NCBI GenBank assembly: GCA_041650935.1 | Contig: JBAZKH010000001.1 | Coordinates: forward strand, 219,337-283,336 | Reading direction: 5' to 3' | Source: Candidatus Omnitrophota bacterium | GTDB lineage: Bacteria; Omnitrophota; Gorgyraeia; 2-01-FULL-45-10 | DNA: 64,000 bases | Shown: positions 8,526 through 41,200 of the stretch, piece by piece | How positions within the stretch are numbered: position 1 is the stretch's first letter | Layout of the letters: each line of letters opens with the position of its first letter | Notes under the pieces: model-generated | Databases searched by the model: none | The model's input: only the letters and a program-made list of their open reading frames with translations | What the model was told of the DNA's origin: nothing | Made by a program: the position numbers and the translations under genes

Positions 8526-8535
8526 AAGAGAGCCT

Positions 8536-22741: not shown

Positions 22742-22758
22742 CAAAATTATCTTTCCTC

Positions 22759-22787
22759 TTGCAAATTTGATAAATTGCGTGTATAAT
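22759..22787 (+). promoter_or_regulatory. near-consensus sigma-70 promoter (TTGCAA-17-TATAAT)
   Basis: -35 at 22759-22764, -10 at 22782-22787, followed by an AGGAGG RBS (22803-22808) 12 nt before the ATG. Confidence 0.6.
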
Positions 22788-22820
22788 ATTTGATATACAA
22801 GTAGGAGGTTCGAGCGATAT

Positions 22821-23006
22821 ATGAAGAAACTAAAACGGTGTGATGGATTCTTGGGATGCAGGACGAGTAAGGCGATAGAAGAGAAGATAAAGGCCCTCTG
22901 CACGGAGAATAATAGAGAGGTGAGCGAAGTCATCAATTATATGTGCAGGATATTTATCGAGGATTTCAGCGGGATACGAACTAAGTTCTTTAAGCGCGAA
23001 GAATAA
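22821..23006 (+). CDS. small hypothetical protein (61 aa; possible ribbon-helix-helix-like regulator)
   Basis: Consensus promoter and strong RBS. Predicted beta-strand followed by two helices (KAIEEKIKALCTENN / REVSEVINYMCRIF). Immediately upstream of the giant ORF. Confidence 0.45.
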   Translation: MKKLKRCDGFLGCRTSKAIEEKIKALCTENNREVSEVINYMCRIFIEDFSGIRTKFFKREE

Positions 23007-23036
23007 TTAAAATATAAAAAAGTTAGTTATGTTTCC

Positions 23037-23065
23037 TTGACTCACCCTAGCTAATATGATACTAT
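23037..23065 (+). promoter_or_regulatory. candidate promoter (TTGACT-17-TACTAT) for the giant-ORF leader
   Basis: By eye, upstream of the leader hairpins. Confidence 0.3.
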
Positions 23066-23143
23066 TACAGTACATATTTTCTAGGATCCCCGTTTGAGTT
23101 TAACTCGGGGGAGTCGAGGGTCTTAAGAAGAGAAACCATGCTT

Positions 23144-23167
23144 TTGCCGGGTGAATTCACCCGGCAA
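23144..23167 (+). promoter_or_regulatory. 24-nt perfect palindrome ttgccgggtgaattcacccggcaa in the giant-ORF leader (copy 1)
   Basis: Nearly identical to the palindrome that immediately follows the giant ORF stop codon (52192-52220). Confidence 0.6.
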
Positions 23168-23184
23168 GATGTAAGGTTTTTATA

Positions 23185-23233
23185 GACCAGATAGCCTAGA
23201 ATTGACGCTTGGCAATCTGGTCTTTTTCTTTTT
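23185..23233 (+). terminator. intrinsic-terminator-like hairpin (agaccagat...atctggtct + T-run) between the small ORF and the giant ORF
   Basis: 9-bp stem with a 21-nt loop followed by tttttcttttt; it lies in the 5' leader, so it could be a terminator or an attenuator. Confidence 0.55.
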
Positions 23234-23261
23234 GTGTGTTAAGAGAACAAAATAGATAGGA

Positions 23262-26200
23262 ATGATGAAAGCCGAAGAAGTCTTGCCAAAATTGAGCCAT
23301 CACAGGTTACCTTTTGCGGTCAGGATAATTGCGTCGATCCTGGTCGTCACTTTCCTTGCCCAGGATATCGTCTGGGCCCATCCGGATCCATTCGTAGATC
23401 AATCCGCGCAGAATAACACGCTTGCTCCCAGCACATTCTTTAAGCTGAAAGATTCAAAAGATAGAGGCGGCGCGCTCTTCGTCGAGTATCTTATAGAAAG
23501 GCATCCTAAATTTCATTCAAATATATCTCTAATAGCGATACAACATATACTTGAAGATAAGGATATACTCGCCTGGTTTGATGAAAATAAGATCACATGC
23601 AAGCCGGATTATGCTAACGGCGGCCAGTTGGGTGCGATAAGCATAAATATTCCGACAGGATACACGTTTCGTTATTATGATCCTGATTTTGACCGGGAAA
23701 ATTCATTTACTTGCGATCCGCAGAGCGTAATAGATTCAAAAGAGCTCAATCCTCGCCTGCATAAGCAGATCATAAGAGCGGGAGACAAGACAGCGACGCC
23801 GACAGCACAGGCGCAGCCAGAAGGACCCCCAGCCACATTGGCTACTCCCCTGACCCGCGAAAAGGCGATAACTCATTATACGGATAAGATGGGAGGATAC
23901 ACATGGGACAATCTCGGCGCAAAGGCGCAGGAGTCCCTGATTGCTAAATACTCTGCTTTAAGAGAGATATTTCATGTATTCGATCCGGTATGGTTCTTAA
24001 GGCAGCATATCAACAGGAGTTGGAAGGAAGAACTTGCGCATAGCTTAGGCATAATAGCCATATGGGCGGGCATGGCGCTCTCTTTTGTCATAATGACTAT
24101 CTTAACTTCCTCGTTCCTCGATATAGCCTATATTAATGCCGTACCTTACGCTTACCCCATAGCGGTTCCGATAGCGCTTCTTGCCGACTGGCTGATCCAT
24201 AGGGCCTGCGATATGCTGGTCATCAACTATAGCGTCGCGCTTTCACGAGGCCCAGACCAGTACGATTTCACCAACATAGTCGATGCGGAGACGCTCTCCA
24301 ATTTTGTCGATAAACTTCAGGAGAGCCAGACGTATGACTACGGAGAGTATGACAGCAGATTCCTACGGCCGCTATTCGAGCTTTTATTCACGAAACTCAG
24401 ACAGGATTTTTCAGGTTCGGAATATTTTATAGCGGAATGCAGAAAAGTGCTTGCCGAAAAAGACTCGTATGAGTTAAGGCGCATGATGAGCGGAGCATTT
24501 TTAAAATCTTTCGAAAAAATTACACAGAAACCCGGCACTGAAAAAGCCTCGGTCGGGTTCTACGGGATGCTCTTTTATTATCTTACGCGCCGCCCGCGCC
24601 CGTACTTTGGGCATCTATACCGCACCTTCATTATTACAAGGCCGGAAGCGCAGCTGGCATTCGGAAAACGCGGCAGGTCGTATTATAGCCGCGGGGAGAG
24701 CGCGGCCAGTTATTACCGTAAGGGGTTTCTGTACGGGCAGTATGAGAATCCGTATTTTACCTCTTCCATACATATGTATGAAACTACATCCCGCGCCGAC
24801 AGGCGGAATACCAAAAATGCGCTGAAGATCCAAAAAGCTTTAGCGATATGGCAGGCGGAGGCAAACCGGCGTGACGATTGGCGCATGCGCCGGCGTATAA
24901 ATAATTTCATAAATAGAACAACCGTCCTCGAGATCGATGTCAAGACAAGCTTGTTTTTCTCGGATCCGGAAAATAACGTAGTGCGTCTTATCCATGCGGA
25001 AGGACGGCGATGCGCGCTGAACCTGCCCGCGCCTTACCTCGCCAGGCTCAGACTTGACAGCGAAAATGACGATGATATGAGAGAACTTGCTACCTACCTG
25101 AATTTCGGGCAGGAGCTTATCGACATATCCGGCAGGGTGATAAAGATGGAAGCCGGCAGTGAAATGGATCGGGAAGCCCGGACCATTGCTACCGTCTCTT
25201 TCCTGAATAATACGAAAGATCATTTTGTAAGTACCGATCGTTTACGCAGGAACCTGGCTGCCTTCATGGAAGAAGATACCATGTCTATCTACACGGACCT
25301 GGCCCGCGAACGGTTTGACAGGGAAAAGGAAGCAGAGTCCTCTTTAAAGGCGGGCATAAAGGGCGGGGAGAGGGAGCAGTTTGCTCGCGCAAGAGACATC
25401 TATAGCCGGTTGATGTACCGCTATGATGGCGCGGGTATGTACTCGAAAGCGCAGGAGTCCTGTGACCATATGTTTTCCGCCACAGAAGGGGCGATACTTC
25501 ATGACAGGGGTGTTCTTACCTGCCCGTATTCCATAGAGAATTTATTTACAGCGCTTCGTTTTGGGCGCCGTGATGAGTTCTTGTCGGGCTTGAGGACCGT
25601 AACTACGGGAAGAGGACTGCCGCGTTATATCGAAAGAAGGGAGGTGGAGATCTTTAAGACCATGCTTTCGCCTTCGAACGAAAAGCGCAATTCATTCCAG
25701 GATGATGTGCTGGAGACCCTATCCGCGCAGGCTGAGGCTATGGATATCGAGAAAACCGGCTCGTTTATGGAGTCTGCCAAGTCTATCCTACATAATTATT
25801 TTGGAAAGAAGATAGATGATAGATTCGGCGATCTGGAGCCGTATGAAATAGAGTACCCTGATTTGTACTATAGCGCGGAAAAACCCGTCATATCTATCAT
25901 TAGCGGCGGACATTACATATCGGGCGAAGAAGTAACAAGAAACGCCGGCATTATAATAGACGCGGTGAGGAGGAGAGTGCCGGCTTCAAGCGGCAGGGAT
26001 TATCTTTCCGGCGGAGGGATAAGGGAAATTATAAATTCTGTCTCCGGGAGATTGGATGCCCACAGGTCCGGATTTTTGCCGAAAGAAAGGGAACTTTTGC
26101 AAACCGCGCTCAAGAGCCTCCGGGTCCTCAATATAACAGAACTGAATTCAATAACGCTTCATAGCGAAAAATCTCCGGCATGCCCCGACTTATGGATGTT

Positions 26201-29200
26201 TGGACTTAATACAAGCCTGCCTTATCATACAAAAGCCGATTTGGATGAATTGCCGGCCGCGCTCAATAGGGATATCCGGGAAGAATTTCCGAATACGCTC
26301 CTTCTATCCTCCGACATACTAGATAGTATCGAGAATGATAAAGCGCTTTTACATGAATATATCTTATGCGTACTTCTTTTATCGCATGTCGACCAGGCGA
26401 CATCCAGATATTTACGCGCGGCCCTATTTCCAGAGAACCAGCGGGACGTAAAAGCACAGGTTTTGAGGCGGGGTGAAAAGTTTCAGACATTGAACAATGT
26501 GCGCATGCTGGAGCAAATTTTCGGAAATCGCATCGCTTCCGAAGAACCGTCTTCCGATGGGCCCATTCTTACTACTCCAAAGACCCGCGAAAAGGCCATA
26601 GCTTATTACACGCGTAAGATGGGCGAAAGGGAATGGAACAGGCTAACCAGTGTGGACCAGGAGCTCTCGATCGGCAAGTATGCCGCACGAAGGGAGATAT
26701 TCCATCTATTCAATCCTATATGGTTTTTTAGACAGCATCCGAATACGTCATGGAAAGAAGAATTGATCCGCGGGTTGGGCATTATAGCTATATGGGCAGG
26801 CATGACGCTATCTTTTGTCATCGTGACTGCCATAACTTCCTTACTCCTCGATATATCGTATAGCAGTGCCGTACCTTACGCGTATCCCATAGCAGTTCCA
26901 ATAGCGCTTCTTGTTAACTGGCTGATCCACAGGACTTACAATATTCTTGCCGTAAAACATAAATTCGCGATGCTCGCTGCGGGAGACGGGTCCGAATCCG
27001 ACAAGCTACCAAGCGCTACCGACGCGGAGAGAAAGAAGGCTCTTGATGCCAGGCTGGCCGCCGCGTTGCGCAAACTCTTCTTCAAAGATAGCCGGGCTAT
27101 GACGGCTCTGGAAGCAGGACTTCCTCATTTCAGCAAAAAAGAGCGGGGGAGAGATACGGCTATATCTCTCTTAGGTATTATCGCCGCCGGCTGGTCTGCC
27201 GAAGCGAAGGATCTCATATTAAAGTGGACGGGGATGGAGGAAGGCGGGCTCGTCCCTAACGTTATCCGCCATGATAATAATCCGCAGGACGATGCGCTAT
27301 ATGCCGCGCCTCCGCCTACATCGGACGCCGCATTGTGGCTCGTTGAGGCCGTCCATAAATATATCGAAAAGTCCGGCGACAGGGCGATGCTCGATTGCGT
27401 AGTCGACAATAAAGGTAAGAAGGTTATCGACGTCCTGCGTAATATTTATAATCGATATTCGACGCCGGGTGGCAGTGATAGTGTGGTCTGTAGTGATCCG
27501 GCTACAGGTTTTGTGTGGGTCCGCAAGAAGACCACCTGGATGGATACGGATAGTACCGAACGGCAGGGATATCCTGTCGAGATCCAGGCGTTATGGTATA
27601 ACGCCCTGAACAAGATGTGCTCCCTCGACAAATCCGTCGCGGCGGAATATAAGAGTCTGGCGGATAAGGTGAAATCGAATTTCCATGAATATTTCTGGAA
27701 TAGCGCGGAAAGTACTGTGTTCGATATTCTGGGCGCGGACGGTTTTGAAACGGCAGCAGAGTCTAAGGACAGAAACAGGCGCGATCCGGCAGTGAGATGT
27801 AACCAGATATTTACGGTATACTTCGGGCTGGCCGAAGGTGCGGACGCAAAGCGGATACTTGAATCGACGAAGAGGCGGCTGCTTGTGCCGGGCGGGCTCA
27901 AGACGCTGGCGGCTCCGGAAAGGATCTATGTGCAGGATACCAGGGACGATGGCGCAAGGGCGAAAGATGAGGCCGAGGGCAGGGTTATAGGCTGGCCGCA
28001 TGCCGTATATTACAAATATTACGATAGCAATAAGTCGGCGGATGACAGGAATAAGGCCTACCATAACGGGACGGCGTGGCCGTGGCTCTACCCGTTCTAC
28101 TGGGCGGCGGCCGTAAAGTGCGGGTCCGAGGCGAAGGATACCTCGGTAGATACTATGGTCAAGGAGTATCTAGAATTGATGAGCGACCCGTGGACCGGAG
28201 GAAACGCTTCGTCTGGAGGAAGCTTGCCGGAACTCCTGGACGCGGAAGCTTCACCCGCGCCGGATGGCAGGACGAAACACTATCCAAAAGGCTGCGGAGA
28301 GCAAGCGTGGAGCATAGCGTGCGCCATCTGGGGGCTTGACGAGCTTTCACCCGCGCCGGTTCAGCCGGGCCGGTTTACTAACGGGGACAATCCTAAGACA
28401 AAGAGGAGCGGGATACGTTATTGCCGTTTCAAATCCGATAAGATAGGCATATCACCAATAGATGCGCTAATGGGTATATCTCAGACAGCCGTATTGACGC
28501 CTGAGACCCGGAAAGATTTTTCGGATATTGTCAGAAAAGTTAAAGCCGGTATTAATGACAGAGAGGCAAACGGCCCTATCGATGAGGATGCATCGGATTT
28601 CCTAGATGAATTAATAGAGGAAGGCAGGGTTCGTGCTGCGCAAATGGACTTCGAAGCTATCTATCTGGACGATATCCTCTATATAGATGAAGGTCTTCTC
28701 GCGGATGATAAAGAGGATGAGCTGGTCAAGTGTCTGCGTGAAGCGGTCAGGACCTCTGCCAGGTCCGGCAAACTTATTATCGAGGTCGATGCCCATGGCC
28801 TGGCTAATGCTTTCGGGACGACGATCGATAATATCCCCGATATTATTATGGACGGAGGCCTGGGAGATATCCCGGCGAAGATTATCCGGAGTAGCGATAA
28901 AGCCCCCGGTGTCCTTCACCTTAACCCCGGATATTTGCATTGTGACCACAGGTTGATAAAGGATATATGGGACTGGTTTGCGTTTGAATTAGGCGCGGAT
29001 ACCGTCTGGTTGAAGGGTGTTTGGGAGGAGAGTATGCTATCCCGGGCCATGGCGAAAGAGTGGCATAGGCTTGATGTGGCGGCGGGCAGGGATAGTCCCC
29101 ATGCCAAGAGAGAGAATGGAAGCAGGTATGATGTCTATAACTACATGGTCGATAAAAGGCTTATCGGATCCGGTAATGGAGCCGCCAATACCAATGAGGC

Positions 29201-32200
29201 GATGAGGAATTTTGTAAAGAGCTGTATTAAACCTAAAGGGCTTAATATAATGCTCGATTTTGTAACAAACCAGATAGCAGCCGACGCTCCGTGTATATTC
29301 AATGATAACACTAAGAACCTTGTCTGGTCGTGGGATAGCGACGCAGAGTTTTATGCGCATATGCGCAGGTTGGGCCGCGCGGATTGGAGCGACAAGCGGC
29401 TTGAAGAAACATTTCTGATTGGCGCCGAGGTGCGGGGATATCGCGAATATTCCCGTGTGGCCAAAGGCATGCTCTCCGGGACAGGCGGAATAAGAGCGAT
29501 GGATGAAGACGAACTGCAGATATGGATAAATAAGGGAACGCTTCCTCCCAGGTTTACTTCTTACAGGATTGTACGGCATCTCGAGAATGGTTCGCTTACC
29601 ACAGCTTTGATCAATTATTCGGAAGAGGTCAATCGCCGTTACATGGGCGGCATCGTAAATATGATGGCTGATATGACGCTTGAAGGCGGGATACGCGGTG
29701 ATATAGTCCATCGCGCATACTGGAATAAATATTTCGACGATCATCTCGCGCCGCTTGGTATGTCAAGAGAGGAAGCCGGCAAAAAGATGCCGGGTGAGAT
29801 CATGGATGAGCTTATGGCGGACTTACGCAGAGAACATCCCGGCACTCGATTCCTGGGTGAGGTGCACGATTCGCCCGGCAAGGACGGCAATATTAAGTTC
29901 TTTGCCCGGATGGGCGAACGGCAGGGGATCAATGCCACTGCCTATTACAAAGATTATTCCGATGAGGTGCTTTCAAGAGGCGCTGCACAAAATGTGAGGG
30001 CATATCTATTCGGAGTGAATGATGAAGAGCAGAGAGGCCGGACGACGATGTTTACGAACCACGACGAGGCGACCGGACTCGAGGCGCTCGGCTCCATAGA
30101 GCGCGTGCGGGCGGCGGCAGGAATGTGCGCCATGCATGGAGGCCCTGTGCTTATACCTCTTACCGAGATCCTGCCGGAGCGACGACCAGACGAGCTATGG
30201 CCTTCCGATCGCGGCCACCCGGCGCACAAGAACTGGCGAGACTCGGCAGTCCATATACCACAGTATGATTTTACCCGTCTCGATGTACCTTTAGCCGGCC
30301 AGTGTCATTTCTTCGGCCGCCCCGGGTTTACCAAGGCCCGGAGGCATTGGGTTAATGCGGAATGTGTGCGGAAATTCCAGGAAGATATTGCCGTTGCGCT
30401 GGAAAACGATGAAGGTATTCACGCAATCGTGAAGCCGGCATATATAGATTCCCTGGAGAATAGCGGCCTTGTGGCGATGATCCGCCGCTCCAGGAAAGAA
30501 GATCTTCTTACGATATGCAACGATTCGGACGTTTCTACCGAGATAATGATCTGTCTCGACCGCGTATTCGGCGCAAACAGTACAGAACCTCCAATCGAAG
30601 GGGAACTCGGTAAAGTGCTCTATTCGGAAGGCACGAAAGTCTATTCGGGACCCAGGACACTTATAGTGGAGTTACCGGCATACGGGTACAGCAACTTCTC
30701 TTTCCGCAAAACGGAAGCTTCCAGGAAAAAGGAAGAGGCCGTAAAAGCGCTTGTGGAAGAGGTGCATAAAAGGGCGCGGGCGGAAGAGAAAACATGGGCC
30801 GGTAATTTCTATCAGCATTACCGTGACCGTCTGGGTGAACGTGAATTCGGGGTCGTCTTTGAAGATGCTCTTGAGAGGCTTCTTTTTTCCGGCGAGGATA
30901 TTGAGCGCCGGGGAGCGGCATGGATAATATCGCATGACGAATTTTTGGGTCCGGTTGCGTTAAAGCAGGACTGGGACCGGATGAAGCTCGAAGAGCTCTT
31001 CAGGCCGCTGGAAGACCGCGCCGTCTTACCGTTTGTTCTTGCGCATGAAACGAAAGGACTCTGGGCCATCACCAAATTCCTGGAAGAGGTTCCGTCCAGA
31101 AAAGAGCACTGGATCGTGGCCCAGCTTCTTGCCGCGGCGATGTCGGTTACGGATATGCAGTTGCGTACCGAGATAATGAAAGAGGTATTCTCCTCGATGC
31201 CCGTCACTTTGCCGTCGATATCCGGCGAAGGGCGCCTGCTTATGCCGTCGGGCACGGAAGAGACATTGATGCAGCAGCATTATAAGCAGACGTCTTTAGT
31301 AAGCGTCAAGAAACTTACGGATATGATCGGCCCGGAACTTGCAGCGAAGATATACCTCAAGAGATACGGCAACCATAATAACGATGAGCCTGCTTATGAG
31401 ATCGCCGGCGAAGAGACGAACCTGACCTTAAAAGACGCTGCTTCGAAAAATGGTTGGATAGCGGCGAATACGTCCTGGAGCCAGGCTAATGGCAATACAT
31501 TGGCACGGCAGCAATTGGTCAAGCTTAAAGCGGAATCCCGGGAGGCGATGGATGCGTTTGCGCTTACCGTAGGCGGTGAAGCATATCTGCTCTTTTTCGG
31601 CGATGGGCATAAAGGCAAGATCCTGCCGGAGAGCTTCGAATTCTTACCCGAGCCCGATCCTGCGCACAATTCCCCCGGGCTATACATCCTATTCGACGCC
31701 TGGAAGAAGGACTCGTACGGCGTTGTTACGAAATCCGGGCTTATATCGGACGGCCTGCCCGTAGATATACCCGCCGGCGGACAGATGATCCTGATGCTTG
31801 CTCCCCCGGAAAAGGAGCGGCCCGAGATACTGCAGGTGTCGGTCGAATTTTTAGGCGGTATGGACAAGCTTGGAGACAATCTGAAGCAGTTACTCGACGA
31901 TATTTACGCGGCGCCCGGCGGCATTATATGGTTTGTCGGCGCGCATCCGAAAGGCGAAATAGGCAAGCTTCTGAATGACGGACCGAATCTGTCGGGTATA
32001 TATGCCCGCGATATCGAGCATGGCGGCAGGAACTATCGTGTGGCTACGCATGGTCCGGTAAAGAGCGTGACGAGCGGCGATACGGCATCGGCATTCTGTG
32101 TTACGGACCTGAAAGATCCCGTGGTTATCGGAAAGATGAAGACGGTTCTCGATGCGCTCGGTAGACGCAGGCCCATAACCGTATTCGATTTAACAGGGCA

Positions 32201-35200
32201 TCTTAGTATCGACAGTCCCGTCATCCTTGAACATCCCGACTGGTGTAGACCTTTTACCGGGGTTCTTCAGGAGTGGCGGCAAGGCGGTATTCCGGAAAAC
32301 TTAAAGGAAGAAGACATACTGTCTATGCCGGGGATCTGGGGATGGGGTTTCCTGCTTTCGGTGCCTTTGGCAGATCCGAAAAAACCTTTGGTGGAAGACC
32401 CTATTGTCCGGAAATTGACAGAGCGGGGTTTTGTCTTTGGGCGGGATCCTCTGGATAAAGACAGGATAAGAGTGCTTGTTTGTCATCATACCAGCGATTT
32501 TGGGCCGATGCCGGATATTGCCAGCCTGGACCTCAATCATCCGGAAGTGCGCCAGTATTATCTGGATACGTTCCGGGCATGGCTGGAGGCCGGCGGCAAT
32601 GGATTCCGAATCGACCTTGCCTATCATTTCCCGTCTGAACTTTTGGGCCTCTTCAAAAAGAGATTCCCGAAGCTTACATGTATTACCGAATATTACAATG
32701 TATTCGGCCAAATGATCGATGTCCATCATCGCACAGGTATAGACGGTTTCTACGACCATGAAGAGTTATGGAAGAAGGTCCGCGATTCATTTTCAATGGC
32801 AGATTCATCAGAGCCTCTCCAGGCGTGGCTATTCGATTTCCAGAAATATCTGGCCTCTGGCGTTTTCGTACATTATCTATCCAATCATGATGAGGATACA
32901 GCCCTGAACATATTTGGCGGAGACAGGAGAAAATATCTTGCCGCTCTTGCGTTCATCGCATTCCTACCGGGGTATCTGATGATAAACTTTCCGGATGCCC
33001 TGGGATTGATGTGGCGCGGATATACTGATGCCGCCGGAAAGACGAAGTATGACATATTAAGAGAATTGCCGTTTGCGAAATTTATGAGATTAGCGCGCCG
33101 GGCCAATCAGGGCCTTGACGGTGAGACTTATGAAGGGCTGCCGTATGATGTTTCGCTATTGGGAAATGTAAATAATATAGTAGCAAGTAGATCTGCCGAT
33201 ATATTCCGCAAAGGGATCGGTTTTGTGGTCCCGAGAAGAGAAGATGGCATTGCATGGTACAAGCGTACCTATCACGGCAAGACGGCCATCGTAATGATAA
33301 ATTACTCCCCCCTTCCTAAGCAAGTCGATCTAAAAAGATATATAACAGAACCCGGCATAAATGTCGGCACCGCCCATTTCCTGCCGTTCGAGAGCCGTAT
33401 CTATTTTATAGAGGACGGCCGTCTCTCCACCCCGCGGGGAATAGTCAATTTTAACGAATTTTATAGAAAGGCGCTGGAGGAATTTTACGGCGACGTGAGT
33501 GACGGTGCGTGGGCGGAGCGGTTCTGTGTTATGTGCCGTAATGAGTTCCAGGGCCGGTCCGATAGGGATTTCAGGGCTGTCTTCAGGGATATTAAATCCG
33601 CTTTAAGGTTTATGTTCCGCTATGGCCCGGATAATGTTAAGTCCGCTGCCGACTGGATGGTGAAGGATCACGAGAAGGGACTGTGGGAACAGTTTAAGTA
33701 TGCCATAGAAGCCGATTTTTACGCAATGGCGGATCAAAGTGATCCGGATTCTCCCCAGGCCAGGCGTATTTTACGGGGGCTGCTCGAAGATACAGCTACG
33801 TTCCCAGGGTTGAGGGATACAGCATTCGGATATGTTAATAATGCACTTGGTGAAGCGTTCAATAGCGGGGACGTTATGCGGATGCGCAATATCTTTTACG
33901 TAGAGGCGGGCCTTCTCCGGCAGGAAGACGAGCTGTCGTGGGCCGGCAAATTTATCGAGAAACATAAAAACTCGTGGGCCGGCAAATTCGACGGTACGCA
34001 CAAGATCGATTGGCGTTCGGACGGGTTACTGCTTGCTTTCCGCGACGTGGTACTTGCGTGGAACCGGTCCGAGGGCCCCATGCATGACGCGGCGCAATGG
34101 ATACTATATAATTTACAGTCTGATTTTTCCGCGCCTTTCCTAGGCTATTACCGCCTGACGATAGCCGATATAAACAGCCGTCTTGAGCGCGGAGAAAGAT
34201 CGACGCTCGGTGACATGAAAGATCTTCTCTCTGAGGTTGCGGAGATACCCGGTTTAGCGGCACAGATCGGTAATGATGCTATAGGGGGCATGCATAAAGG
34301 GGTTCCCAATCTAACCAATGAAGACTCATTGGCCGGCCTGCTTGGCATGGAAGCTTCTTTGTTGCAACAAATGCATGGATCGGGCTGGGCGAAGATATTT
34401 ACGGAAAACTACAAAGATAAATGGCAAGGTCCTTCAGGGCGGGAGCAGAACAGGGTGTTTCTTGCGGCTTTCCGCAACGTAGCGCTTGATTGGAACTCCA
34501 GCAATGACGAGTCCACCAGTTTTGCCGCCAAATGGATGCTCTATAATCCCGATTCTCCGTATTCGGCCGAATTTTCAAGACCTTATGTGGAAGAGCTCGA
34601 TGAGATAGGGCGGGCATTTAAAAAGCCGGGCTCGCCGGCTTTTGATGCGCTGGCGGCATTCCTTGCCCGTGCCGATAAGATATCGGGCTTAAGAGAGCAT
34701 CTTACCGGCAAGGCTATCGAGACGGTGCGCGGTGCGGCAGAGTCATGCTCGGGAGATCGGCTTAAGAGCCTTCTCCGTCTCGAGGCGAACTTCCTGAAGG
34801 AGTTGCGCCGCGAAGGATGGGCGCGCGAATTCATCGAAAGCCATCGCAAACAGTGGAAAGACCATGACTTTACGGATGTAATTCTCGAATGGAACCGCAG
34901 CGAAGACGTTCCAACCTTTGCGGCGGCCCAATGGATGCTATTTGGTCCGGATTCTAATTTTTCATCGGTATTTTTCGATAAGTATAAAAGCGATATCAAT
35001 GACATGCTGGAGAGCGTAAAGAAGACGCCATCGGAGCATGGTCCAGAGGTTTCCCGTACCCTGGAGTTGCTGCTTCATGATGCGCGATATATACGGGGGC
35101 TTAACAAGCGCCTCCTCGAAGAGATGACTCAAAGGATAAATATTGGACATGCGCCCGAGGATATTGTCTTCTATTGTGAGATAGCCGCCGAACTGGCCCG

Positions 35201-38200
35201 TGCTCAAGCCGACCCGCAACTCGCTGCCAGGATATTTAAATTGGTGCAGGATGCCCGTTCACACCCTCCGCAGCCCGAGCTATCCGCTTTCCTTATGACG
35301 TATAACCTGTTTATATTAACCGTATCGTTCGTCACCTGGTTGACGGGGGAGATGCTGGGCACAAATAATCTGATAGGTTTGTATGGAATGTCAGGATATC
35401 TATTTGCCGTCTTCCTGCCGTTTGCCGCATCTATTCTTGTCCATGAATTCGCGGACTATTTCGCCACATGGATCAAGACAGGAGAACGCCCCTACTTACC
35501 AAGATTCAAAGGATTATCATTACAGGTCACGCCGTCTTTCGAAGGCCAGGAGATCGTAAACATCGGCCCGTACGCCAGCGCCGCATTAACATTCATCGCC
35601 TTACCTATATTATACCTTGCAGGAGTAAGTCCGCTCTTCCTGGCCATTACAGCCGCCTACTCATTCGTCCACACTATATTCAGCGATAACTTCCTGTTCC
35701 TGAAGGCGGCCGCCAAAAAGCTTGGAATGCTACAAGCAACATATTGGTGGAACGAAAAAAAACACGGCGGGATCCTATGCTCGCTATTCTCCGGTAAAAG
35801 GAAGGATGACCAGGGCATAGGCGATCTTAAGTGGCTGGATATGTTTATAGATTTTGCCGACAAACAGGGTGCAGATATGATTTTCCTGCTTCCTACAACC
35901 CAGATAAATCCGGGTGGGATCCCCGGCCTTTCAACGCCTTATGGCAGTATAAGTACATTTGCGCAAAGCGCCATCATGTACCTTCCTCTTGACGAATATC
36001 TGGACAAAGCAAAGCTTGGCGAATATATCGATTCGTTTGTCGCGGGCGACGAAGCGAAGAGGCAAAAATTATTGGAAGCCCTGCGGTCGCGGAAGATCGA
36101 CTACCCGTTCATCTATGCGTTTAAGAAACATTGCTGGTGGCAGGTATTCAAAGACCGCTATCCGGGAATGAGCGTCGACGAGAACACCGAGTTCGATTCG
36201 TACGTGCGGCAAAACAGGGATTGGATTGAAGATTACTCGCTATTCCATGCTCTTTTTGCCAAATTTGATAAGGCGTGGTGGGATTGGGACGATAAATACA
36301 AAAATCGGGACGAGAAAGCGCTGGATGAGGCCAGAGAAACATGCAAAGAAGAGATATCGTTCTACAAGTATATGCAGTGGCTTTACGATAAGCGATGGAA
36401 AGAAGTAAGAGTGCATGCCCGCGAAAAGGGTAAACGTATAATAGGTGATATGCCGCTTTATCCCGAACCAAATAGCGCCGATGTTTGGGCGTATCAGGAC
36501 TTGTTTATCGGATCGAAACGCGCCGGCGCGCCCCCAGAACCAGGCATTTCAGATTTAGGACAGAAATGGCAATTCTGGCCGTATAACTGGAAGTATAAAA
36601 GTAAGGAGGTGCTGGGATTCCTTGAAAAACGTATACGGCATATGGCGCAACTCTATGATGGTATCCGTATAGATCACGTTTTAGGGCTTCTTCAGGAGTG
36701 GAATGTGGACAAAAGTGACGAAGTAAAACCCACCGAAGGTGAGTGGGTTCCGGAAGATAATAAGGTAGCTATAAAATTCGGCAGAAAAAATCTCCGCCGG
36801 TTAGCAAAGGTAGCCGCCCGGACAAATACGCTGCTTATAGGAGAAGATATAGGCGGCAGAGATAAGTCTATCATAAAAATGATGGACGATGTTTGTGAAA
36901 GGCTGCCCAACTTCTATCTTTTCCATATGATAGGCTGGTTGGAAGATAAGAGGCAGGATAAAAAGCATCTATGGACGTTTGACGCCGGCCACGATCAGCC
37001 GTGCCGCTTTGCTTTCCGTTGGGAAGAAATGAAAAGCGTTAATAATGAGATAGATATGAGAGGGGTGAGGCATTTCTTAGCCTCTCATGGCGAGACCATC
37101 GCCGATTCCGATACTCCGGAAGATGTGGAGAAGAAGGTGTCGAGGGCCTTGAGGCGGATGCCGTTCTACTCGTTTACATTGCAGGCATTGCTGAAAGCGC
37201 CGAAAGAAGCCAGGATAAATTCGCCGGGCACGCAGAATTTTGAGAACTGGTCATGGAGATCGCAGGATATCGAAGATCTTCTGGAGATGGAAGACCTTGG
37301 CTATTACTACAGGGAGGAACCGCTGGCTGTCGCGGAGGAAAAGAATAACCGCGGGGTCGGTACGCCGTTTGCCGGGGACGCCGCGTTTTCGAATGACAAT
37401 GTATCGGTCAGTTCGCTCATTGCCGGTCTTGGGCTGAAGCCGGGAGCGAGCCAGGACGATATCGACGGAGTGATTATAGAAGCCGTCAATGACCCGGCCG
37501 GTAACGACACATTATTGCAGATATTAGGTTTTAATAAAACACAAAGAGAGGCCCTGGCTCAGGCCTTAATGCCCTCGCCTAAAGTGAGAAGCCTTTTCGA
37601 AAAAGAGAGAAATTTTGCGGGGATTGAGTATATAGTCAGAGTCCCGGGCATTAAAGAGGCAAGGATAGAGAGTGCCCGCGAGAAGGTAATGCTGGGTATC
37701 CAATGCTGGCATGATTACGGGCACAAATTTGCAAAGTTTGTGGCACTCGCTTACAATATCAAAAAGGGCGACAAGGAAGATGAAGTGCGCGGAAAGATAG
37801 AAAAGATCATGGGGGAATACGCACCAATTTTAAGGGACAGGGAATTCCTGGAAAAGATGTCTGACTATTTTGAGCATTATCCGCCGGTTATGCTATCGCT
37901 TGTTTACGTTTTGTGGGCCCAGATACGCGCCGGCCCGGAAGAGGAGATCAAGCCCTTAACAGAAGCCCTTCTTAAAGTTTCACGGATTAATATTGGCACG
38001 CCGTTAGAATATATCCCATATTATAAATTAATTGCTGTAAAGTATCTAGCCCTCTTAGGCGTAGATAATACCCACTCCATAATAGTTCCGCTTGCCCAGC
38101 ATCCTCAGGAGGATGATTTCTTTAGGACCGCTTTTCAGACACTTGTATTTATAGCTGCATCTAACAGGCTGAGAAGCCTCTTTGACTTTGTAGGTCCCAA

Positions 38201-41200
38201 GGCAGATCCTAAAGCGGCCAGGCTTGCCGTAAGGATTGTGGTTGCGGCACACCCGGCCGATAGCGTCTACGCAAAGTTCCTTGATCTTGCGGCGCAATAC
38301 CCTGATGCTGAAGTCCGGCGCATGGCCGAAGAGGCTAAAGAGAAGGCGTTTCCTTCTTCCGCTGCTCCGTGGGAAATCGATGATCAGGCTAACCGGGCAG
38401 CCGATCCTAATGACGGCTTGACTCCGACTGATATGTGGGGCGAAGAAGATCTTTCGGGAAAAGCTCCCCAAAAAGAGGATGGCGAGATATACCAGCAAGT
38501 TCAATTGATGCTGCAGGTTGCGCCTCCGGTTCTCGTTGAAGTAACCAATATAAAAGTTTGGAAGCGATTGTTGCAGGAATTAGGACACAAAGGTGAAGCG
38601 TACTTTCTGGGCGAGACAGATGATATGCCGCTCAAGACAACCGCCGCATGGGCAAATAAAATCTATCCTGAGCATACCTCGGAGGATGTTCAGCATATAT
38701 ATGAAGATGCCACGCGCATACCGCTTGCAAACATGTTTAAGATGTTTGTGTTCGGCGATTTTCCCGCCGTAAAGTTTCATGAGAGGCTGCACGCTGCCAT
38801 GTCCTTAAGAGCGCTAAAGGAAGGCACTTTATATAGAAAAGAAGACGATTCAGTCTTTAATGGTACGGAAAGAAATGATGCCAAAGCGCTGAAGGCTCTA
38901 TCGGGTAAGTATGACGATGCGAGGGAAGCCTTCAGGGGGCTGGAAAGCGCTTTAAGTAATTATCCTGGCGGGGAATTATCCCAGGAATTATTCGCGTGGC
39001 TGGGTACAATTGATCGTTATCCGGATTTTATAGGGAAACCTTCTTTCCCTGAAGGCTCGGAGGAGGCCGAATATTTAAAGCATTACTTTGATCCAAAAAA
39101 GAGAAGCACGGCCGTAATGCTTGAGCCCACACGGCAATTTATTGCGGTCGCCCGGAGACATCCTGAGATCGTGGAATTTCTGCGCCAATATTATGGAAGG
39201 CTCCAAAAATTCACCCAGGAGACTGCGCCATTTCTCGGTTTTACAAGCGGCCAGATAGCGGCGGCGTTTGGAGGGTATGCGCCTCGAAACGGCGGCGGAG
39301 GAGCGGGGATGGTCTTGGGTTGGGCGCCGTTAAAAAAACGGCACGGATGGTTGCCGACAAGCTGGATGTTGTTTCTGCCGATCTTTGGCCTTTATGTTGT
39401 GGATTGGAATCGCGGTATCAATAGGCCGGAACCGCCGGAAATACCTGTTTTTGAAAATGGCCACGCTGGTGGTGAACTCTTTTGTTTAAGCAAAAAGAGG
39501 GCTATGATACCGGTAGCGGGTGCTGTCAAGGTAAAACGGGACGGAGAATATATCGTATTTTATCATGAGAATGAGGCGGATGTCCTTTATACAAAAGATG
39601 GGGAAGAGGCGCGTATTAAAGTAATAAGTGAAGATCAAAATTCCGGAATCGCGATTATCGAGGAGAATAACAATATCTGCGGGTTCAACGGTGAAAATGT
39701 GGCTTATGCAACGCGTGCCGTTTTGAATAGAGAGGTAGAGTTCTTTAGAGAAAGGAGGCTCCGGCATTACGCTGCCGCGCCCTTGACGGCAAAAAAGAAA
39801 GAACCTATCGATGATCCTGTATCCCTGAACCGGAGGGTGACGGAAGATGTTAGCCACAATCTAAAGCGCCTGACCCGCGACGGCCTGGTCTTTATGGATA
39901 TTTGCGCCGGGCTTTTTAAATTGATAAAAAAACGCCCACCGTCAAATTATGCGGAACTTTCCAGATGGGTGGATTCAAAGGACCATTCAAATACGCCTTT
40001 CCCCGCAAGGGAAGATTTGGATTACGATCTTGACGCTTTAATGGAAGGCCATTCTTCGTTCAGCCTGATCCGGCAAAGATTGAATTTTCCGGCGGTCGAT
40101 ATTAGTGAATACAACTGGCTCAGGCAGGGATGGGCTGTGCTCTGTCCGGAATTGATAACTTTGCTGAAAGAATACGGAAATGACCGGCAAAAGGGCTACG
40201 CGGCAATGTGGGATCACCTGAATGAACTTTCATCCGCCGCTAAAATTGTAATGGTTGGCAATGCGCTGGAAGAAGAGGTGAGAATACGCCGTGAATTGTC
40301 TGAAGGTGAACGTTTGGAACTTGTCAAAATCAAGTTATTGTCGAAGCTTGCCGTCGAGCATCCGGGTGTCCTTATAGGAATAGTCAGGCAGTTATACGGA
40401 TTGCGGTATTACCATGAGCTAGGCATTATAGAGGATATGTACGCGAGGATTGAATGCGATATTCCGCTTGAGATAAAAGATATAGTTATCGATGCTTCGC
40501 AAAAGATAGACATAGCGAAAAAACTACATCGCATATATGGGCTGCCTTTAGAAGAGGGCCTTTATTGCGTGACGGACGAAGAGATAAATGGCCGCCTGAA
40601 AGAGAAATTTCTAACTGCCGAAAATAGCAACCGCCTGTCGTTTGAGAAACTCAAGAATCTTATAATGGTACTGGATAATTTTGTCAATGCACCGCCCTAC
40701 TCTAAAAGCGCTAAAGTAAGTGCGAAAAAAGATCTCAGGTTCAATGATTATGAACGAGCCTCAAATATCGTGCATCGGTTAAGAGCGATAGACGAGCATA
40801 GGTTTGCCGTTACCTTGCAGAGGTTAGAAAGGGTGGTGAGCAGGTGGGAAGAACGCGTTGATCGCCAAGGCGCTTATTCGCAAGCCGGTTTGGTAAAATT
40901 GCTATGGACTTTCTGGCATTCGACAAATATCGGTGAGGAGATGGCCAGATATACAACCGATATGATAGGCAAGCCGCCTGTCTTTACCGACCTTAAGTAC
41001 AACATTATCTTCGGAATAGAGGACGATGTCAGCGCGGGCCCAAAGAAGTCGAAGGCGAAACCGGGGAGGCCAAGAGGCTCATATAAGAAAAAAGCCGGCA
41101 AAGACAGCATAGAGCCCGGCATGCTTGACGCGGTTCTCGCCGTAGGCAGGTGGTGGTATAACAAGGTAAAGAAGCTGGGTCTGGACGAAGAAGATCTGCG

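What the first reader, a model, noticed from the sequence alone, without database searches (positions are those of the whole stretch)
27230..37100. A complete alpha-glucan (glycogen/maltodextrin) enzyme set fused within the giant protein: GDE-like, two GH13 modules and GH77 amylomaltase
Four catalytic-type modules appear in order. First, an (alpha/alpha)6 GDE_C-like domain (YHNGTAWPW, GCGEQAWS). Second, a divergent GH13 module whose conserved regions I-IV all carry the catalytic Asp/Glu/Asp, plus a domain C. Third, a canonical GH13 module (DLNHPEVRQYYLD..GNGFRIDLAYH, ITEYYN, YLSNHDE) with domain C. Fourth, a GH77 4-alpha-glucanotransferase with all conserved blocks (GIGDL, DMPLYPEPNSADVWA, GAPPEP..GQKWQFWPYNW, RIDHV, IGEDIG). 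These enzymes are normally separate cytoplasmic proteins (GlgX/GlgB/MalQ-like). Here they are linked by about 1.5 kb of tandem repeats and a transmembrane block.
Basis: partly seen in the sequence, partly recalled or inferred. Interest (0 to 1): 0.7.

Follow-up and report, generated by a model that had tools for sequence, protein, structure and literature searches.

The report
Alpha-glucan enzyme cassette in giant protein
A 9,640-residue membrane-anchored protein, most likely from an Omnitrophota bacterium, carries four apparently intact glycogen/maltodextrin-processing enzyme modules fused in a row; this is a new domain combination in an already known class of giant multi-enzyme proteins, and it links the bacterial GDE-type glucosidase to glucan transferases.

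Summary
Window 23262..52184 (+) is one uninterrupted 9,640-aa ORF.

**The four modules**
- GDE_C/GH133-type barrel, aa 1276-1688 (Pfam E=5e-58).
- A divergent GH13-like module, aa 1830-2490. Pfam and NCBIfam miss it. Its AlphaFold model (pLDDT 87) matches only GH13 enzymes.
- A second, paralogous GH13 module, aa 2861-3400, with an N-terminal beta-domain and a domain C.
- A GH77 amylomaltase, aa 4181-4668 (E=5e-79).

Each module keeps its family-invariant catalytic residues.

**Linkers and relatives**
- Modules 3 and 4 are joined by about 1.56 kb of ~146-aa helical repeats and a four-helix membrane block.
- The cassette is colinear in independently assembled giant proteins, two of them in Candidatus Omnitrophota MAGs. 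The fusion is therefore real and conserved, not an assembly artefact.

**Caveats**
- "Complete set" is overstated. There is no phosphorylase, synthase or recognisable branching enzyme.
- The Glu in GCGEQAWS is not the conserved catalytic base.

**Most likely function:** a membrane-tethered, probably cytoplasm-facing glycogen/maltodextrin remodelling and indirect-debranching line (transferase plus alpha-1,6-glucosidase). The compartment is not settled.

**Novelty:** a new variant of a known kind, the Omnitrophota multi-enzyme giant proteins.

The parts
23262..52184 (+). Giant ORF, 9,640 aa. A multi-pass membrane protein that carries the cassette.
   Evidence: ORF listing and translation without internal stops. 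Colinear orthologs in L005, L006, L003 and L001.
27087..28325 (+). Module 1: GDE_C / GH133-type (alpha/alpha)6 amylo-alpha-1,6-glucosidase barrel, aa1276-1688, without the usual GDE_N domain.
   Evidence: Pfam PF06202 E=5.3e-58, profile positions 11-365 of 367. TIGR01561 archaeal-type GDE E=9e-36, C-terminal part only. Family-invariant G-R-D1298, W-M-D1428, YHNGT1600-1604 and E1657 are kept in a 38-sequence alignment. D1298 aligns with CgGDE D1078 and Y1584 with Y1407 (PMC4837477).
28749..30731 (+). Module 2: divergent GH13-like (beta/alpha)8 barrel plus C-terminal beta-sandwich, aa1830-2490.
   Evidence: No Pfam, NCBIfam or PDB sequence hit. The exhaustive HMMER search finds 35 relatives, most of them inside other giant proteins. 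AlphaFold2 pLDDT 87.1, pTM 0.89. Foldseek top 50 are all GH13, best E=2.3e-15. Invariant residues are R2145, D2147, E2200, H2267 and D2268; D1999 and N2003 are near-invariant.
30774..31211 (+). Single copy of the ~146-aa helical spacer unit, aa2505-2650.
   Evidence: Iterative profile search. Predicted all-helical, residues 1-156 of model mb9978d857c10. The same unit occurs in P0007, P0013, P0023 and P0036.
31212..31841 (+). Beta-rich N-domain preceding module 3, about aa2651-2860.
   Evidence: Beta strands at residues ~160-370 of the model. Matches to N-domain-bearing GH13 enzymes (4aef, TVAII, GlgE) span 600-770 alignment columns.
31842..33461 (+). Module 3: GH13 catalytic barrel plus domain C, aa2861-3400, neopullulanase-like and paralogous to module 2.
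   Evidence: PDB phmmer 4aef E=6.6e-8. Pfam Alpha-amylase 24.9 bits against 22, plus weak C-domain hits. Model pLDDT 74.8 with GH13 as the Foldseek top 50. The module 2 profile hits it at E=2e-15 and aligns D2976/H2980, D3118, E3143 and H3208/D3209 to regions I-IV. These residues are conserved in L006, L003 and P0015.
33477..35033 (+). Tandem helical repeats, aa3406-3924: one partial and three full ~146-aa units.
   Evidence: Self-BLAST of pieces. Profile search gives units at 3406-3496, 3507-3654, 3655-3800 and 3801-3924. They are present in P0002, P0003 and P0004 at only 34-40% identity.
35280..35687 (+). Transmembrane block, aa4007-4142: four predicted helices with a Lys-rich C-terminal flank.
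   Evidence: Kyte-Doolittle scan. Hand-curated helices and K+R counts. 75% identical in L005. Absent from the P0003 ortholog.
35802..37265 (+). Module 4: GH77 4-alpha-glucanotransferase (amylomaltase), aa4181-4668.
   Evidence: Pfam PF02446 E=5.3e-79, 266.7 bits. NF011081 E=5e-75. Aquifex amylomaltase 1tz7 E=8e-39. D4471, E4528 and D4578 align with E. coli MalQ D448, E496 and D548 and are invariant in 5 sequences. 86% identical to the L005/P0004 ortholog, the best-conserved part.

Best explanation
This is a chromosomal gene of a bacterium most likely belonging to Omnitrophota. It encodes a 9,640-aa membrane-anchored protein of the 'multi-enzyme' giant class.

**What the cassette contains.** Residues ~1276-4668 form a conserved alpha-glucan processing cassette, in this order:
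1. A GH133-type amylo-alpha-1,6-glucosidase barrel.
2. Two paralogous divergent GH13-type modules.
3. Helical spacer repeats.
4. A four-helix membrane block.
5. A GH77 4-alpha-glucanotransferase.

**What is shown.** The identity, the fold and the retained catalytic residues of all four modules are shown. So is conservation of their order in related giant proteins.

**What is inferred.**
- The modules work together as a tethered glycogen/maltodextrin remodelling line.
- The GH13 modules and GH77 cut and transfer alpha-1,4 chains. This includes moving the malto-oligosyl stub off a short branch.
- The GH133 barrel then hydrolyses the remaining single alpha-1,6-linked glucose. This is the two-step 'indirect' debranching known from the eukaryotic debranching enzyme and proposed for archaea.
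For: **Module identities and catalytic residues:**

**The fusion is real and conserved.**
- L006/P0002 is colinear over q1256-4003 at 45% identity.
- L003/P0003 is colinear over q1427-3990 and has a GH77 further on.
- L005/L001 cover module 2 through GH77.
- L005 and L006 are titled Candidatus Omnitrophota MAGs.

**Selection acts on the enzymes.** Against L005, GH77 is 86% identical and module 2 65%, while the repeats are 40% and the N-terminus 34%.

**Functional linkage outside the giants.** A stand-alone module 2 homolog (P0006, no signal peptide) lies directly downstream of a stand-alone GH77 gene.

**Cytoplasmic side.**
- All internal membrane blocks have an even helix count (2, 2, 4, 4).
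- K+R within 15 residues of the helices is 22 on the bulk side against 3 on the other.
- The same polypeptide carries sigma-70 region 4, an SF1 helicase ATPase, Fe-ADH-like and GNAT domains. By established knowledge these need DNA, ATP, NAD(P) and acetyl-CoA.
- Ortholog P0003 has the whole cassette with no membrane segment.

**Literature.**
- Omnitrophota MAGs encode glycogen synthesis (PMC8542988).
- Their long proteins commonly carry starch-synthase, GT1 and PGM 'sugar metabolism' modules, read as compatible with a cytoplasmic face (10.64898/2026.06.07.730766).
- A GH133 null mutant in Sulfolobus accumulates glycogen, and transferase plus amylo-1,6-glucosidase debranching is described for archaea (PMC11046441).
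Against: - No activity or substrate was tested. The GH13 subfamilies, and hence the specificities of modules 2 and 3, are unknown.
- Module 2 has Gln in place of the region I His.
- phmmer alignments to 4aef and 1wza place Q3150, not E3143, opposite the acid/base Glu of module 3. Ortholog conservation, the predicted strand position and the family profile favour E3143.
- The N-terminal hydrophobic segment (aa17-37, then VWA|H) looks like a signal peptide or an N-in signal anchor. With even membrane blocks, that would put the whole protein outside the cell.
- West-Roberts et al. predict most domains of Omnitrophota giants to be extracellular, while noting that such predictions are unreliable.
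- The L005 lineage has lost GDE_C and has a decayed module 3. Not every module is indispensable.
- No phosphorylase is present to produce the limit dextrin on which indirect debranching normally acts.
Confidence: 0.55

Rival explanations
1. The cassette is exported and displayed on the cell surface or in the periplasm. There it digests external or prey-derived alpha-glucan, for example glycogen released from or accessed in a host cell. This fits the predatory or epibiotic lifestyle proposed for Omnitrophota giant proteins.
For: - The N-terminal segment has a positively charged n-region, a 20-residue hydrophobic core and a VWA|H site, like a Sec signal peptide or N-in anchor. All later membrane blocks have even helix counts, so everything downstream would share the outside.
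- This segment is almost identical in the L005 ortholog.
- The literature reads many Omnitrophota giants as signal-peptide-plus-membrane effectors. It predicts most of their domains to be extracellular.
- A distant module 2 relative, P0033, has a signal peptide.
Against: - The positive-inside count strongly favours the bulk being cytoplasmic, 22 against 3 K+R.
- The same side would then have to hold an ATP-dependent SF1 helicase, a sigma-70 region 4 HTH, a GNAT and an Fe-ADH-like domain.
- The neighbourhood is housekeeping genes: rimO, pgsA-like and pgpA-like upstream, cinA, recA and alaS downstream. There are no secretion, pilus or sugar-import genes.
- The closest stand-alone module 2 homolog lacks a signal peptide.
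Confidence: 0.25
2. The giant ORF is a polyprotein. It is cleaved after translation, or translated from internal starts, into ordinary-sized GDE, GH13 and MalQ-like enzymes, so the fusion has no mechanistic meaning.
For: - West-Roberts et al. raise self-cleavage by C39 or S8 peptidase domains for other giants.
- The modules are separated by poorly conserved linkers and repeats.
Against: - No peptidase domain was detected in this protein at E<=0.01.
- The spacer units and membrane blocks are themselves conserved families across orthologs; the membrane block is 75% identical.
- The module order is conserved.
- Nothing here tests processing either way.
Confidence: 0.1
3. The modules are catalytically dead relics or carbohydrate-binding scaffolds within a structural giant protein.
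For: - In the L005/P0004 lineage module 3 has R->Q, E->K and HD->PG changes plus two deletions, and GDE_C is absent.
- In the window protein, module 2 has the region I His replaced by Gln.
Against: - In the window protein every family-invariant catalytic residue checked is intact in all four modules.
- The catalytic modules are markedly better conserved than the linkers.
Confidence: 0.07
4. The giant ORF is an artefact: an assembly chimera, or several genes merged by sequencing errors.
For: None found.
Against: - The frame is open for 28.9 kb, with G+C like its flanks.
- Every module junction is reproduced in at least one independent assembly (NCBI MAGs JAQURV01, JAQTQI01 and JBDRHE01, and JGI 3300013137).
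Confidence: 0.02

Closest known systems
Omnitrophota giant multi-enzyme proteins (Archaeovorin-type, West-Roberts et al. 2023 bioRxiv 10.1101/2023.11.21.568195; 'multi-enzyme metabolic cluster' class with a sugar-metabolism module, bioRxiv 10.64898/2026.06.07.730766)
   Same: - It has Omnitrophota relatives.
- It is a single very long ORF with many membrane helices, tiled with divergent enzyme domains of carbohydrate metabolism plus GNAT and helicase-type domains.
- Glycogen-related domains (GT5/starch synthase, GT1, PGM) are already reported in such proteins.
   Different: - At 9,640 aa it is below the >=30,000-aa set studied by West-Roberts.
- It has no SecA_DEAD, C39 or dockerin domains.
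- Its glucan modules are the degradative/remodelling ones (GDE_C, GH13, GH77). The main texts of both papers do not mention these.
- It has housekeeping rather than secretion or pilus neighbours.
Eukaryotic glycogen debranching enzyme (AGL/Gdb1; GH13_25 transferase + GH133 glucosidase; CgGDE structures 5D06/5D0F, PMC4837477)
   Same: - One polypeptide combines a GH13-type transferase or hydrolase with a GDE_C (alpha/alpha)6 glucosidase barrel.
- D1298 and Y1584 align with CgGDE D1078 and Y1407.
- The family-invariant acid and base candidates are present.
   Different: - The domain order is reversed, with GDE_C first.
- The GH13 modules are not GH13_25.
- There is an additional GH77, spacer repeats and membrane helices.
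- Sequence similarity to CgGDE is only local (E=4e-7).
Bacterial/archaeal stand-alone amylo-alpha-1,6-glucosidases (GDE_N PF12439 + GDE_C PF06202; TIGR01561)
   Same: They are the closest relatives of module 1, at 30-37% identity over more than 90% of the module, with the same invariant residues.
   Different: Module 1 lacks the GDE_N domain and matches only profile positions 266-567 of TIGR01561. It is embedded in a giant protein directly after a membrane hairpin.
MalQ / amylomaltase (GH77; E. coli MalQ, Aquifex 1TZ7, Thermus 1CWY) and known GH77 fusions (GlgX/MalQ PRK14510, TreY/MalQ PRK14507)
   Same: It is a full-length GH77 domain whose catalytic triad aligns with MalQ D448/E496/D548. A GH77 fused to GH13 enzymes has precedent.
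   Different: It scores below the NCBIfam equivalog cut-offs (252.8 against 556). It is preceded by a four-helix membrane block. It is fused to GDE_C and to a different kind of GH13.
Neopullulanase / TVAII / cyclomaltodextrinase-type GH13 enzymes (e.g. Pyrococcus 4AEF) and haloarchaeal MalA-like alpha-amylases (NF041321)
   Same: Module 3 shares regions II-IV, domain C and an N-terminal beta-domain. Stand-alone relatives of module 2 score best against MalA.
   Different: - Identity is only 11-16% in the structural alignments.
- Pfam barely detects module 3 and misses module 2.
- Module 2 belongs to a separate clade, found mostly inside giant proteins, whose region II lacks the canonical His in most members.

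Membership tests
GH77 (4-alpha-glucanotransferase) | Significant full-length match to the family profile (PF02446) above its gathering score | tested here: met
   266.7 bits against 25, profile positions 9-460 of 465. NF011081 E=5e-75.
GH77 (4-alpha-glucanotransferase) | Catalytic nucleophile Asp, acid/base Glu and transition-state Asp, as in E. coli MalQ D448/E496/D548 (assignment of these residues from my own knowledge of the MalQ literature) | tested here: met
   D4471, E4528 and D4578 align with them and are invariant in the 5-sequence alignment A5.
GH77 (4-alpha-glucanotransferase) | Disproportionation of malto-oligosaccharides | not testable with these tools
   Needs an enzyme assay.
GH13 (module 3, aa2861-3400) | Sequence similarity to characterised GH13 enzymes or the family profile | tested here: met
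   4aef E=6.6e-8 and more than 20 further GH13 chains at E<1e-3. Pfam Alpha-amylase is only marginal, 24.9 against 22.
GH13 (module 3, aa2861-3400) | (beta/alpha)8 barrel followed by a beta-sandwich domain C | tested here: met
   Model pLDDT 74.8. The Foldseek top 50 are all GH13, best E=1.5e-15, TM-score normalised to the target up to 0.67.
GH13 (module 3, aa2861-3400) | Conserved regions I-IV with Asp (II), Glu (III) and His-Asp (IV) | tested here: met
   D2976/H2980, D3118, E3143 and H3208/D3209. Caveat: phmmer against 4aef and 1wza aligns Q3150 to the acid/base Glu. The predicted beta5 end and the family profile favour E3143.
GH13 / clan GH-H (module 2, aa1830-2490) | Match to the Pfam or NCBIfam family profile | tested here: not met
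   Alpha-amylase E=0.12, 12 bits. No NCBIfam hit. No PDB sequence hit.
GH13 / clan GH-H (module 2, aa1830-2490) | (beta/alpha)8 barrel plus domain C fold | tested here: met
   pLDDT 87.1, pTM 0.89. The Foldseek top 50 are all GH13, E=2e-15 to 1e-12.
GH13 / clan GH-H (module 2, aa1830-2490) | Regions I-IV with catalytic Asp/Glu/Asp | tested here: met
   R2145, D2147, E2200, H2267 and D2268 are invariant in 18 sequences. D1999 and N2003 are near-invariant. The region I His is Gln2004.
GH133 / GDE_C amylo-alpha-1,6-glucosidase | Full-length match to PF06202 | tested here: met
   197.2 bits against 21, profile positions 11-365 of 367.
GH133 / GDE_C amylo-alpha-1,6-glucosidase | Catalytic residues equivalent to CgGDE D1078, D1241 and E1492 (PMC4837477) | tested here: inconclusive
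   D1298 aligns with D1078 directly. D1428 (WMD) and E1657 (LPE) are invariant in 38 family members. Their equivalence to D1241 and E1492 is inferred, not aligned, because no CgGDE sequence was available.
GH133 / GDE_C amylo-alpha-1,6-glucosidase | N-terminal GDE_N (PF12439) domain, as in most bacterial homologs | tested here: not met
   There is no PF12439 hit. Only ~50 residues separate the membrane hairpin from the barrel.
Eukaryote-type bifunctional glycogen debranching enzyme | GH13_25 transferase N-terminal to GDE_C, with M1/M2 domains, about 1,500 aa | tested here: not met
   The order is reversed, the GH13 modules are of another type, and TIGR01531 matches only the GDE_C part. It may work like one, but it is not a member.
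Omnitrophota giant multi-enzyme membrane proteins | Encoded in Omnitrophota; one very long ORF with multiple membrane helices tiled with divergent enzyme domains | tested here: met
   Orthologs lie in two Ca. Omnitrophota MAGs. There are 13 predicted helices and more than 8 enzyme-type domains. The taxon of the window itself is inferred from its relatives, not shown.
Omnitrophota giant multi-enzyme membrane proteins | SecA_DEAD domain and/or N-terminal C39 or S8 peptidase, common in the >=30,000-aa set | tested here: not met
   None detected at E<=0.01.

The most novel reading that the evidence does not exclude
The cassette is displayed outside the cell, or delivered to a host, as a membrane-tethered 'glycogen-mining' machine. 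It would let an ultra-small predatory or epibiotic Omnitrophota cell debranch and disproportionate a prey cell's storage glycogen into importable sugars. Module 2 would then represent a new GH13-like family specialised for giant effector proteins.
Probability: 0.15. Interest if true: 0.8.

Novelty: new variant of a known kind. Interest (0 to 1): 0.5.

Why it matters
1. **A clue to gene function.** The fusion acts as a 'Rosetta stone'. It physically couples a bacterial GDE_C/GH133 glucosidase to GH77 and GH13 transferase-type modules. The biochemical partners of GDE_C in prokaryotes are poorly defined, so this supports a eukaryote- and archaea-like two-step debranching route in bacteria.
2. **A missing half of the pathway.** Glycogen-related content reported so far in Omnitrophota giant proteins is on the synthesis side (GT5 starch synthase, GT1, PGM). 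This cassette adds the degradative and remodelling side. It gives a compact 9.6-kaa test case whose modules are small enough to express.
3. **A GH13-like clade that standard annotation misses.** Module 2 defines a clade invisible to Pfam and NCBIfam that recurs in many giant proteins. Standard CAZyme annotation would miss it.
4. **A handle on topology.** Whether giant proteins face the cytoplasm or the outside is an open argument in this field. The cassette sits on the same side of the membrane as a helicase, a sigma-factor domain and a GNAT, which gives a concrete way to test it.

Tried and rejected
- **Word-indexed homolog searches.** Module 2 gave one weak hit and module 3 gave none. The exhaustive HMMER search was needed to find relatives.
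- **Source contig.** An exact look-up of the window's RecA found nothing. The window's own record and taxon are therefore unknown and are inferred from orthologs.
- **Locus scan.** The search for related loci rejected the 18-sequence alignment as too diverse. A 4-sequence alignment worked.
- **Internal repeats.** Whole-protein self-BLAST returned only the self-hit. Cutting the protein into pieces worked. jackhmmer against the single sequence failed; adding the orthologs worked.
- **Structure job for module 3.** Replacing it with the P0004 segment worked.
- **GDE acid/base mapping.** A PDB sequence search with the C-terminal half of GDE_C gave only weak trehalase and invertase hits. The acid and base could not be mapped on CgGDE directly.
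- **Rejected: GCGEQAWS holds the catalytic base.** That Glu is R or T in the orthologs and is not conserved in the family.
- **Rejected: Q3150 is the module 3 acid/base position**.
- **Rejected: AbpA-like.** The Pfam hit at aa~2683-2753 (E=0.0036, below its cut-off) was not pursued.
- **Non-coding RNA.** An Rfam scan of the window found only one tRNA.
- **Literature.** The supplements of West-Roberts et al. are not held, so I could not check their domain tables for GH77 or GDE_C.

Full report
**1. Observation**

The window contains a single ORF of 9,640 codons at 23262..52184 on the + strand. It translates without an internal stop. Its G+C content (0.48-0.54) resembles that of its flanks.

A Pfam scan of the whole protein gives three hits in the flagged stretch:
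- GDE_C at aa1276-1688 (E=5.3e-58).
- Glyco_hydro_77 at aa4181-4668 (E=5.3e-79).
- A marginal Alpha-amylase hit at aa3086-3123 (24.6 bits, cut-off 22).

**2. Context and origin**

The flanks are ordinary bacterial housekeeping genes:
- Upstream: ribE, ligA, xerD, an A-adding tRNA nucleotidyltransferase, nrnA, truB, ribF, pnp, ftsK, rodZ, rimO, and pgsA- and pgpA-like genes.
- Downstream: cinA (on the minus strand), recA, alaS and hisDBH.

There are no secretion, pilus or sugar-transport genes in the window. The window's own record could not be traced; an exact RecA look-up failed.

A scan of GTDB species genomes with a module 2 alignment found two loci. Both are titled 'MAG: Candidatus Omnitrophota bacterium': L005 at 65% identity and L006 at 55%. 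The window therefore most likely comes from Omnitrophota. This is an inference from relatives.

**3. Module 1 (aa1276-1688)**

- Pfam covers profile positions 11-365 of 367.
- NCBIfam's best model is TIGR01561, 'putative glycogen debranching enzyme, archaeal type'. Only its C-terminal part (positions 266-567 of 569) is matched.
- Stand-alone relatives are 30-37% identical. Most carry GDE_N plus GDE_C, and several come from Planctomycetes, Verrucomicrobia, Kiritimatiellia and Desulfobacterota MAGs. Module 1 is the bare (alpha/alpha)6 barrel.
- In a 38-sequence alignment, the invariant columns that the window protein retains include G-R-D1298, W-M-D1428-T, Y-H-N-G-T (aa1600-1604), E1657 and GC..Q.W.
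- D1298 aligns directly with Candida glabrata GDE D1078, and Y1584 with Y1407. Both residues are needed for glucosidase activity (PMC4837477).
- D1428 and E1657 are my candidates for the general acid and base (CgGDE D1241 and E1492). That equivalence is inferred, not aligned.

**4. Module 2 (aa1830-2490)**

Sequence tools fail on this module: no PDB hit, Pfam Alpha-amylase E=0.12, no NCBIfam hit, and one weak hit in the word-indexed search.

The exhaustive HMMER search found 35 relatives. They fall into three groups:
- Most lie inside other giant proteins of 1,800-7,695 aa.
- A few are stand-alone: P0006 (580 aa), P0009, and P0033, which has a signal peptide.
- The most distant are ~480-aa actinobacterial-type proteins with a 'YEINTWxWL' motif.

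NCBIfam relates the stand-alone relatives weakly to haloarchaeal alpha-amylase MalA.

In an 18-sequence alignment the invariant columns are R2145 and D2147 (region II), E2200 (region III) and H2267 and D2268 (region IV). D1999 and N2003 (region I) are near-invariant. The region I His is Gln in the window protein.

The AlphaFold2 model built on this alignment is confident (pLDDT 87.1, pTM 0.89). It shows a beta/alpha barrel followed by a beta-sandwich. All 50 best Foldseek matches in the PDB are GH13 enzymes, with E from 2e-15 to 1e-12.

**5. Module 3 (aa2861-3400, with an N-domain from about aa2651)**

- phmmer against the PDB finds the Pyrococcus neopullulanase-type amylase 4AEF (E=6.6e-8) and many TVAII, CGTase and maltogenic amylase chains. 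The matches cover regions II-IV and domain C.
- A model of aa2490-3400 (pLDDT 74.8) shows four parts: a helical unit, a beta-rich N-domain, a beta/alpha barrel and a C-terminal beta-sandwich. Again all 50 top PDB matches are GH13.
- The module 2 family profile hits module 3 at E=2e-15. It aligns VFDLTGH, GFRIDLAYH, ITEYY and SNHDE to regions I-IV. Modules 2 and 3 are therefore paralogs.
- The catalytic residues D3118, E3143 and D3209 are conserved in L006, L003 and P0015.
- One discrepancy: the PDB phmmer alignments put Q3150 opposite the acid/base Glu. Ortholog conservation, the end of the predicted beta5 strand and the family profile all point to E3143.

**6. Module 4 (aa4181-4668)**

- There are strong matches to Pfam GH77, to NCBIfam 4-alpha-glucanotransferase models and to Aquifex amylomaltase 1TZ7 (E=8e-39).
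- Aligned with E. coli MalQ taken from NC_000913.3, D4471, E4528 and D4578 coincide with MalQ D448, E496 and D548. They are invariant in all five sequences.

**7. Linkers**

- A ~146-aa helical unit occurs once after module 2 (aa2505-2650). It occurs as one partial plus three full tandem copies after module 3 (aa3406-3924, 1.56 kb).
- The same unit occurs in the orthologs and in unrelated giants P0007, P0013, P0023 and P0036.
- aa4007-4142 holds four hydrophobic helices.

**8. Conservation of the fusion**

| Ortholog | Source | What it carries |
|---|---|---|
| L006 / P0002 | Ca. Omnitrophota MAG | GNAT, GDE_C, module 2, spacer unit, module 3 and repeats, colinear over q1256-4003 at 45% identity; the contig then ends |
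| L003 / P0003 | JGI metagenome 3300013137 | GDE_C (cut by the contig start), module 2, module 3, repeats and a divergent GH77 with insertions |
| L005 and L001 / P0004 | Ca. Omnitrophota MAG (L005); NCBI assembly GCA_028712245.1 (L001) | Module 2 to GH77 |

- The L005/L001 lineage lacks GDE_C. Its module 3 is decayed: two deletions plus R->Q, E->K and HD->PG changes.
- Catalytic modules are better conserved than linkers. Against L005, GH77 is 86% identical, the membrane block 75% and module 2 65%. The repeats are 40% and the N-terminus 34%.
- A stand-alone module 2 homolog lies immediately downstream of a stand-alone GH77 gene in L002.
- Other giants with a module 2-like domain have no GH77 or GDE_C. 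The full cassette is confined to a small clade.

**9. Compartment**

Hand-curated helices number 1 (aa17-37), then 2, 2, 4 and 4. With all internal blocks even, everything after the first helix lies on one side of the membrane.

*For a cytoplasmic bulk:*
- Lys+Arg counts within 15 residues of the helices are 22 on the bulk side against 3 on the other. The positive-inside rule therefore puts the bulk in the cytoplasm.
- The same side carries sigma-70 region 4, an SF1 helicase, Fe-ADH-like and GNAT domains.
- Ortholog P0003 has no membrane segment in 5,885 aa.

*Against:*
- The N-terminal segment looks like a signal peptide or N-in anchor, and it is almost identical in L005.

The literature on Omnitrophota giants reports the same ambiguity. 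I therefore rate the cytoplasmic reading as more likely, but not settled.

**10. Mechanism**

*Shown:* four modules with intact family-invariant catalytic residues, in a conserved order, tethered to a membrane.

*Inferred:* they cooperate on glycogen or maltodextrin.
- A 4-alpha-glucanotransferase (GH77, possibly also a GH13 module) followed by an amylo-alpha-1,6-glucosidase is the two-step indirect debranching route. It is known from the eukaryotic debranching enzyme (PMC4837477) and described for archaea. In archaea a GH133 knockout accumulates glycogen (PMC11046441).
- Omnitrophota MAGs encode glycogen synthesis (PMC8542988).
- Their long proteins often carry starch-synthase, GT1 and PGM modules.

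The set is not complete. Phosphorylase, synthase, GlgC and a recognisable branching enzyme are absent from the protein.

**11. Comparison and novelty**

Giant multi-enzyme membrane proteins of Omnitrophota are known, and glycogen-synthesis domains in them have been reported. GH77-GH13 fusions exist, and the eukaryotic debranching enzyme fuses GH13 with GDE_C.

What I did not find described in the texts I could search is the combination GDE_C + two GH13-like modules + GH77 in one polypeptide, nor the module 2 clade (supplements not available).

I class the finding as a new variant of a known kind and give it moderate interest (0.5). The more novel reading, an exported prey-glycogen-mining machine, is not excluded. 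I give it about 0.15.

Noticed in passing
window 23766..24290 and 26457..27029 (aa169-343 and aa1066-1256 of the giant ORF): An internal duplication at 54-57% identity. The duplicated module ends in a two-helix membrane hairpin (LGIIAIWAGM...VPYAYPIAVPIALL). The second copy sits directly before the GDE_C barrel, and P0002 has a related module after its repeats.
   Followed up: partly
window 26133..26603 and 47166..47669 (aa958-1114 and aa7969-8136): A second, more distant internal duplication (24-28% identity, E=1e-8) of an unassigned region. One copy precedes the cassette and the other precedes the Fe-ADH-like domain.
   Followed up: no
window ~41900..51150 (aa ~6230-9290): The C-terminal third of the same ORF carries cytoplasm-type domains: sigma-70 region 4 (aa~6455-6506, with a second HTH-like copy upstream), an SF1 helicase AAA_11/AAA_12 (aa~7390-7813), an Fe-ADH-like domain (aa~8143-8273) and a GNAT (aa~9193-9290). 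A sigma-factor-like domain inside a membrane giant is odd.
   Followed up: partly
window 23262..23390 (aa1-43) and L005 5732..5860: The N-terminal hydrophobic segment AVRIIASILVVTFL(A/T)QD(I/V)VWAHPDPF is almost identical between the window protein and the L005 ortholog, while the rest of the N-terminus is 34% identical. That is unusually conserved for a mere signal peptide. Its orientation conflicts with the positive-inside count of all the other helices.
   Followed up: partly
window 35439..35459 (aa4060-4066, inside the membrane block): A 'VHEFADY' motif lies at the end of the second helix of the four-helix block. It is reminiscent of intramembrane metalloprotease HExxH sites but lacks the second His. 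Not analysed.
   Followed up: no
L005 5723..21595 and L001 (P0004): The closest ortholog lineage lacks GDE_C. Its module 3 has two deletions and substituted catalytic residues (FQID, VKYE, SSPGED). It carries a protein-kinase domain (Pfam E=8.6e-11) downstream of GH77 that was not detected in the window protein.
   Followed up: partly
L002 50..3981: In an unrelated metagenome contig, a stand-alone GH77 gene (698 aa) is followed directly by a stand-alone module 2-type gene (P0006, 580 aa). PilZ and peptide-type ABC permease genes come next.
   Followed up: partly
window 30774..31211 and 33477..35033; also P0007, P0013, P0023, P0036: The ~146-aa helical spacer unit (W..NFY....F...F..AL.RLLF....RGAAWI.S..EFLGP) is a family of its own. 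It recurs between enzyme modules in several otherwise unrelated giant proteins and has no Pfam match.
   Followed up: partly
window 8536..11148 and 11564..12523: An 870-aa A-adding tRNA nucleotidyltransferase (NF041569, E=4e-219, below its cut-off) has an N-terminal DHH/NrnA-like part and a CBS part. A separate nrnA-like gene follows it.
   Followed up: no
window 21715..23261: pgsA-like (21715..22305) and pgpA-like (22289..22741) phospholipid genes lie upstream, identified by eye from their sequences only. They are followed by a ~520-bp lower-GC intergenic stretch with one 61-aa ORF (22821..23006) before the giant gene's start.
   Followed up: no
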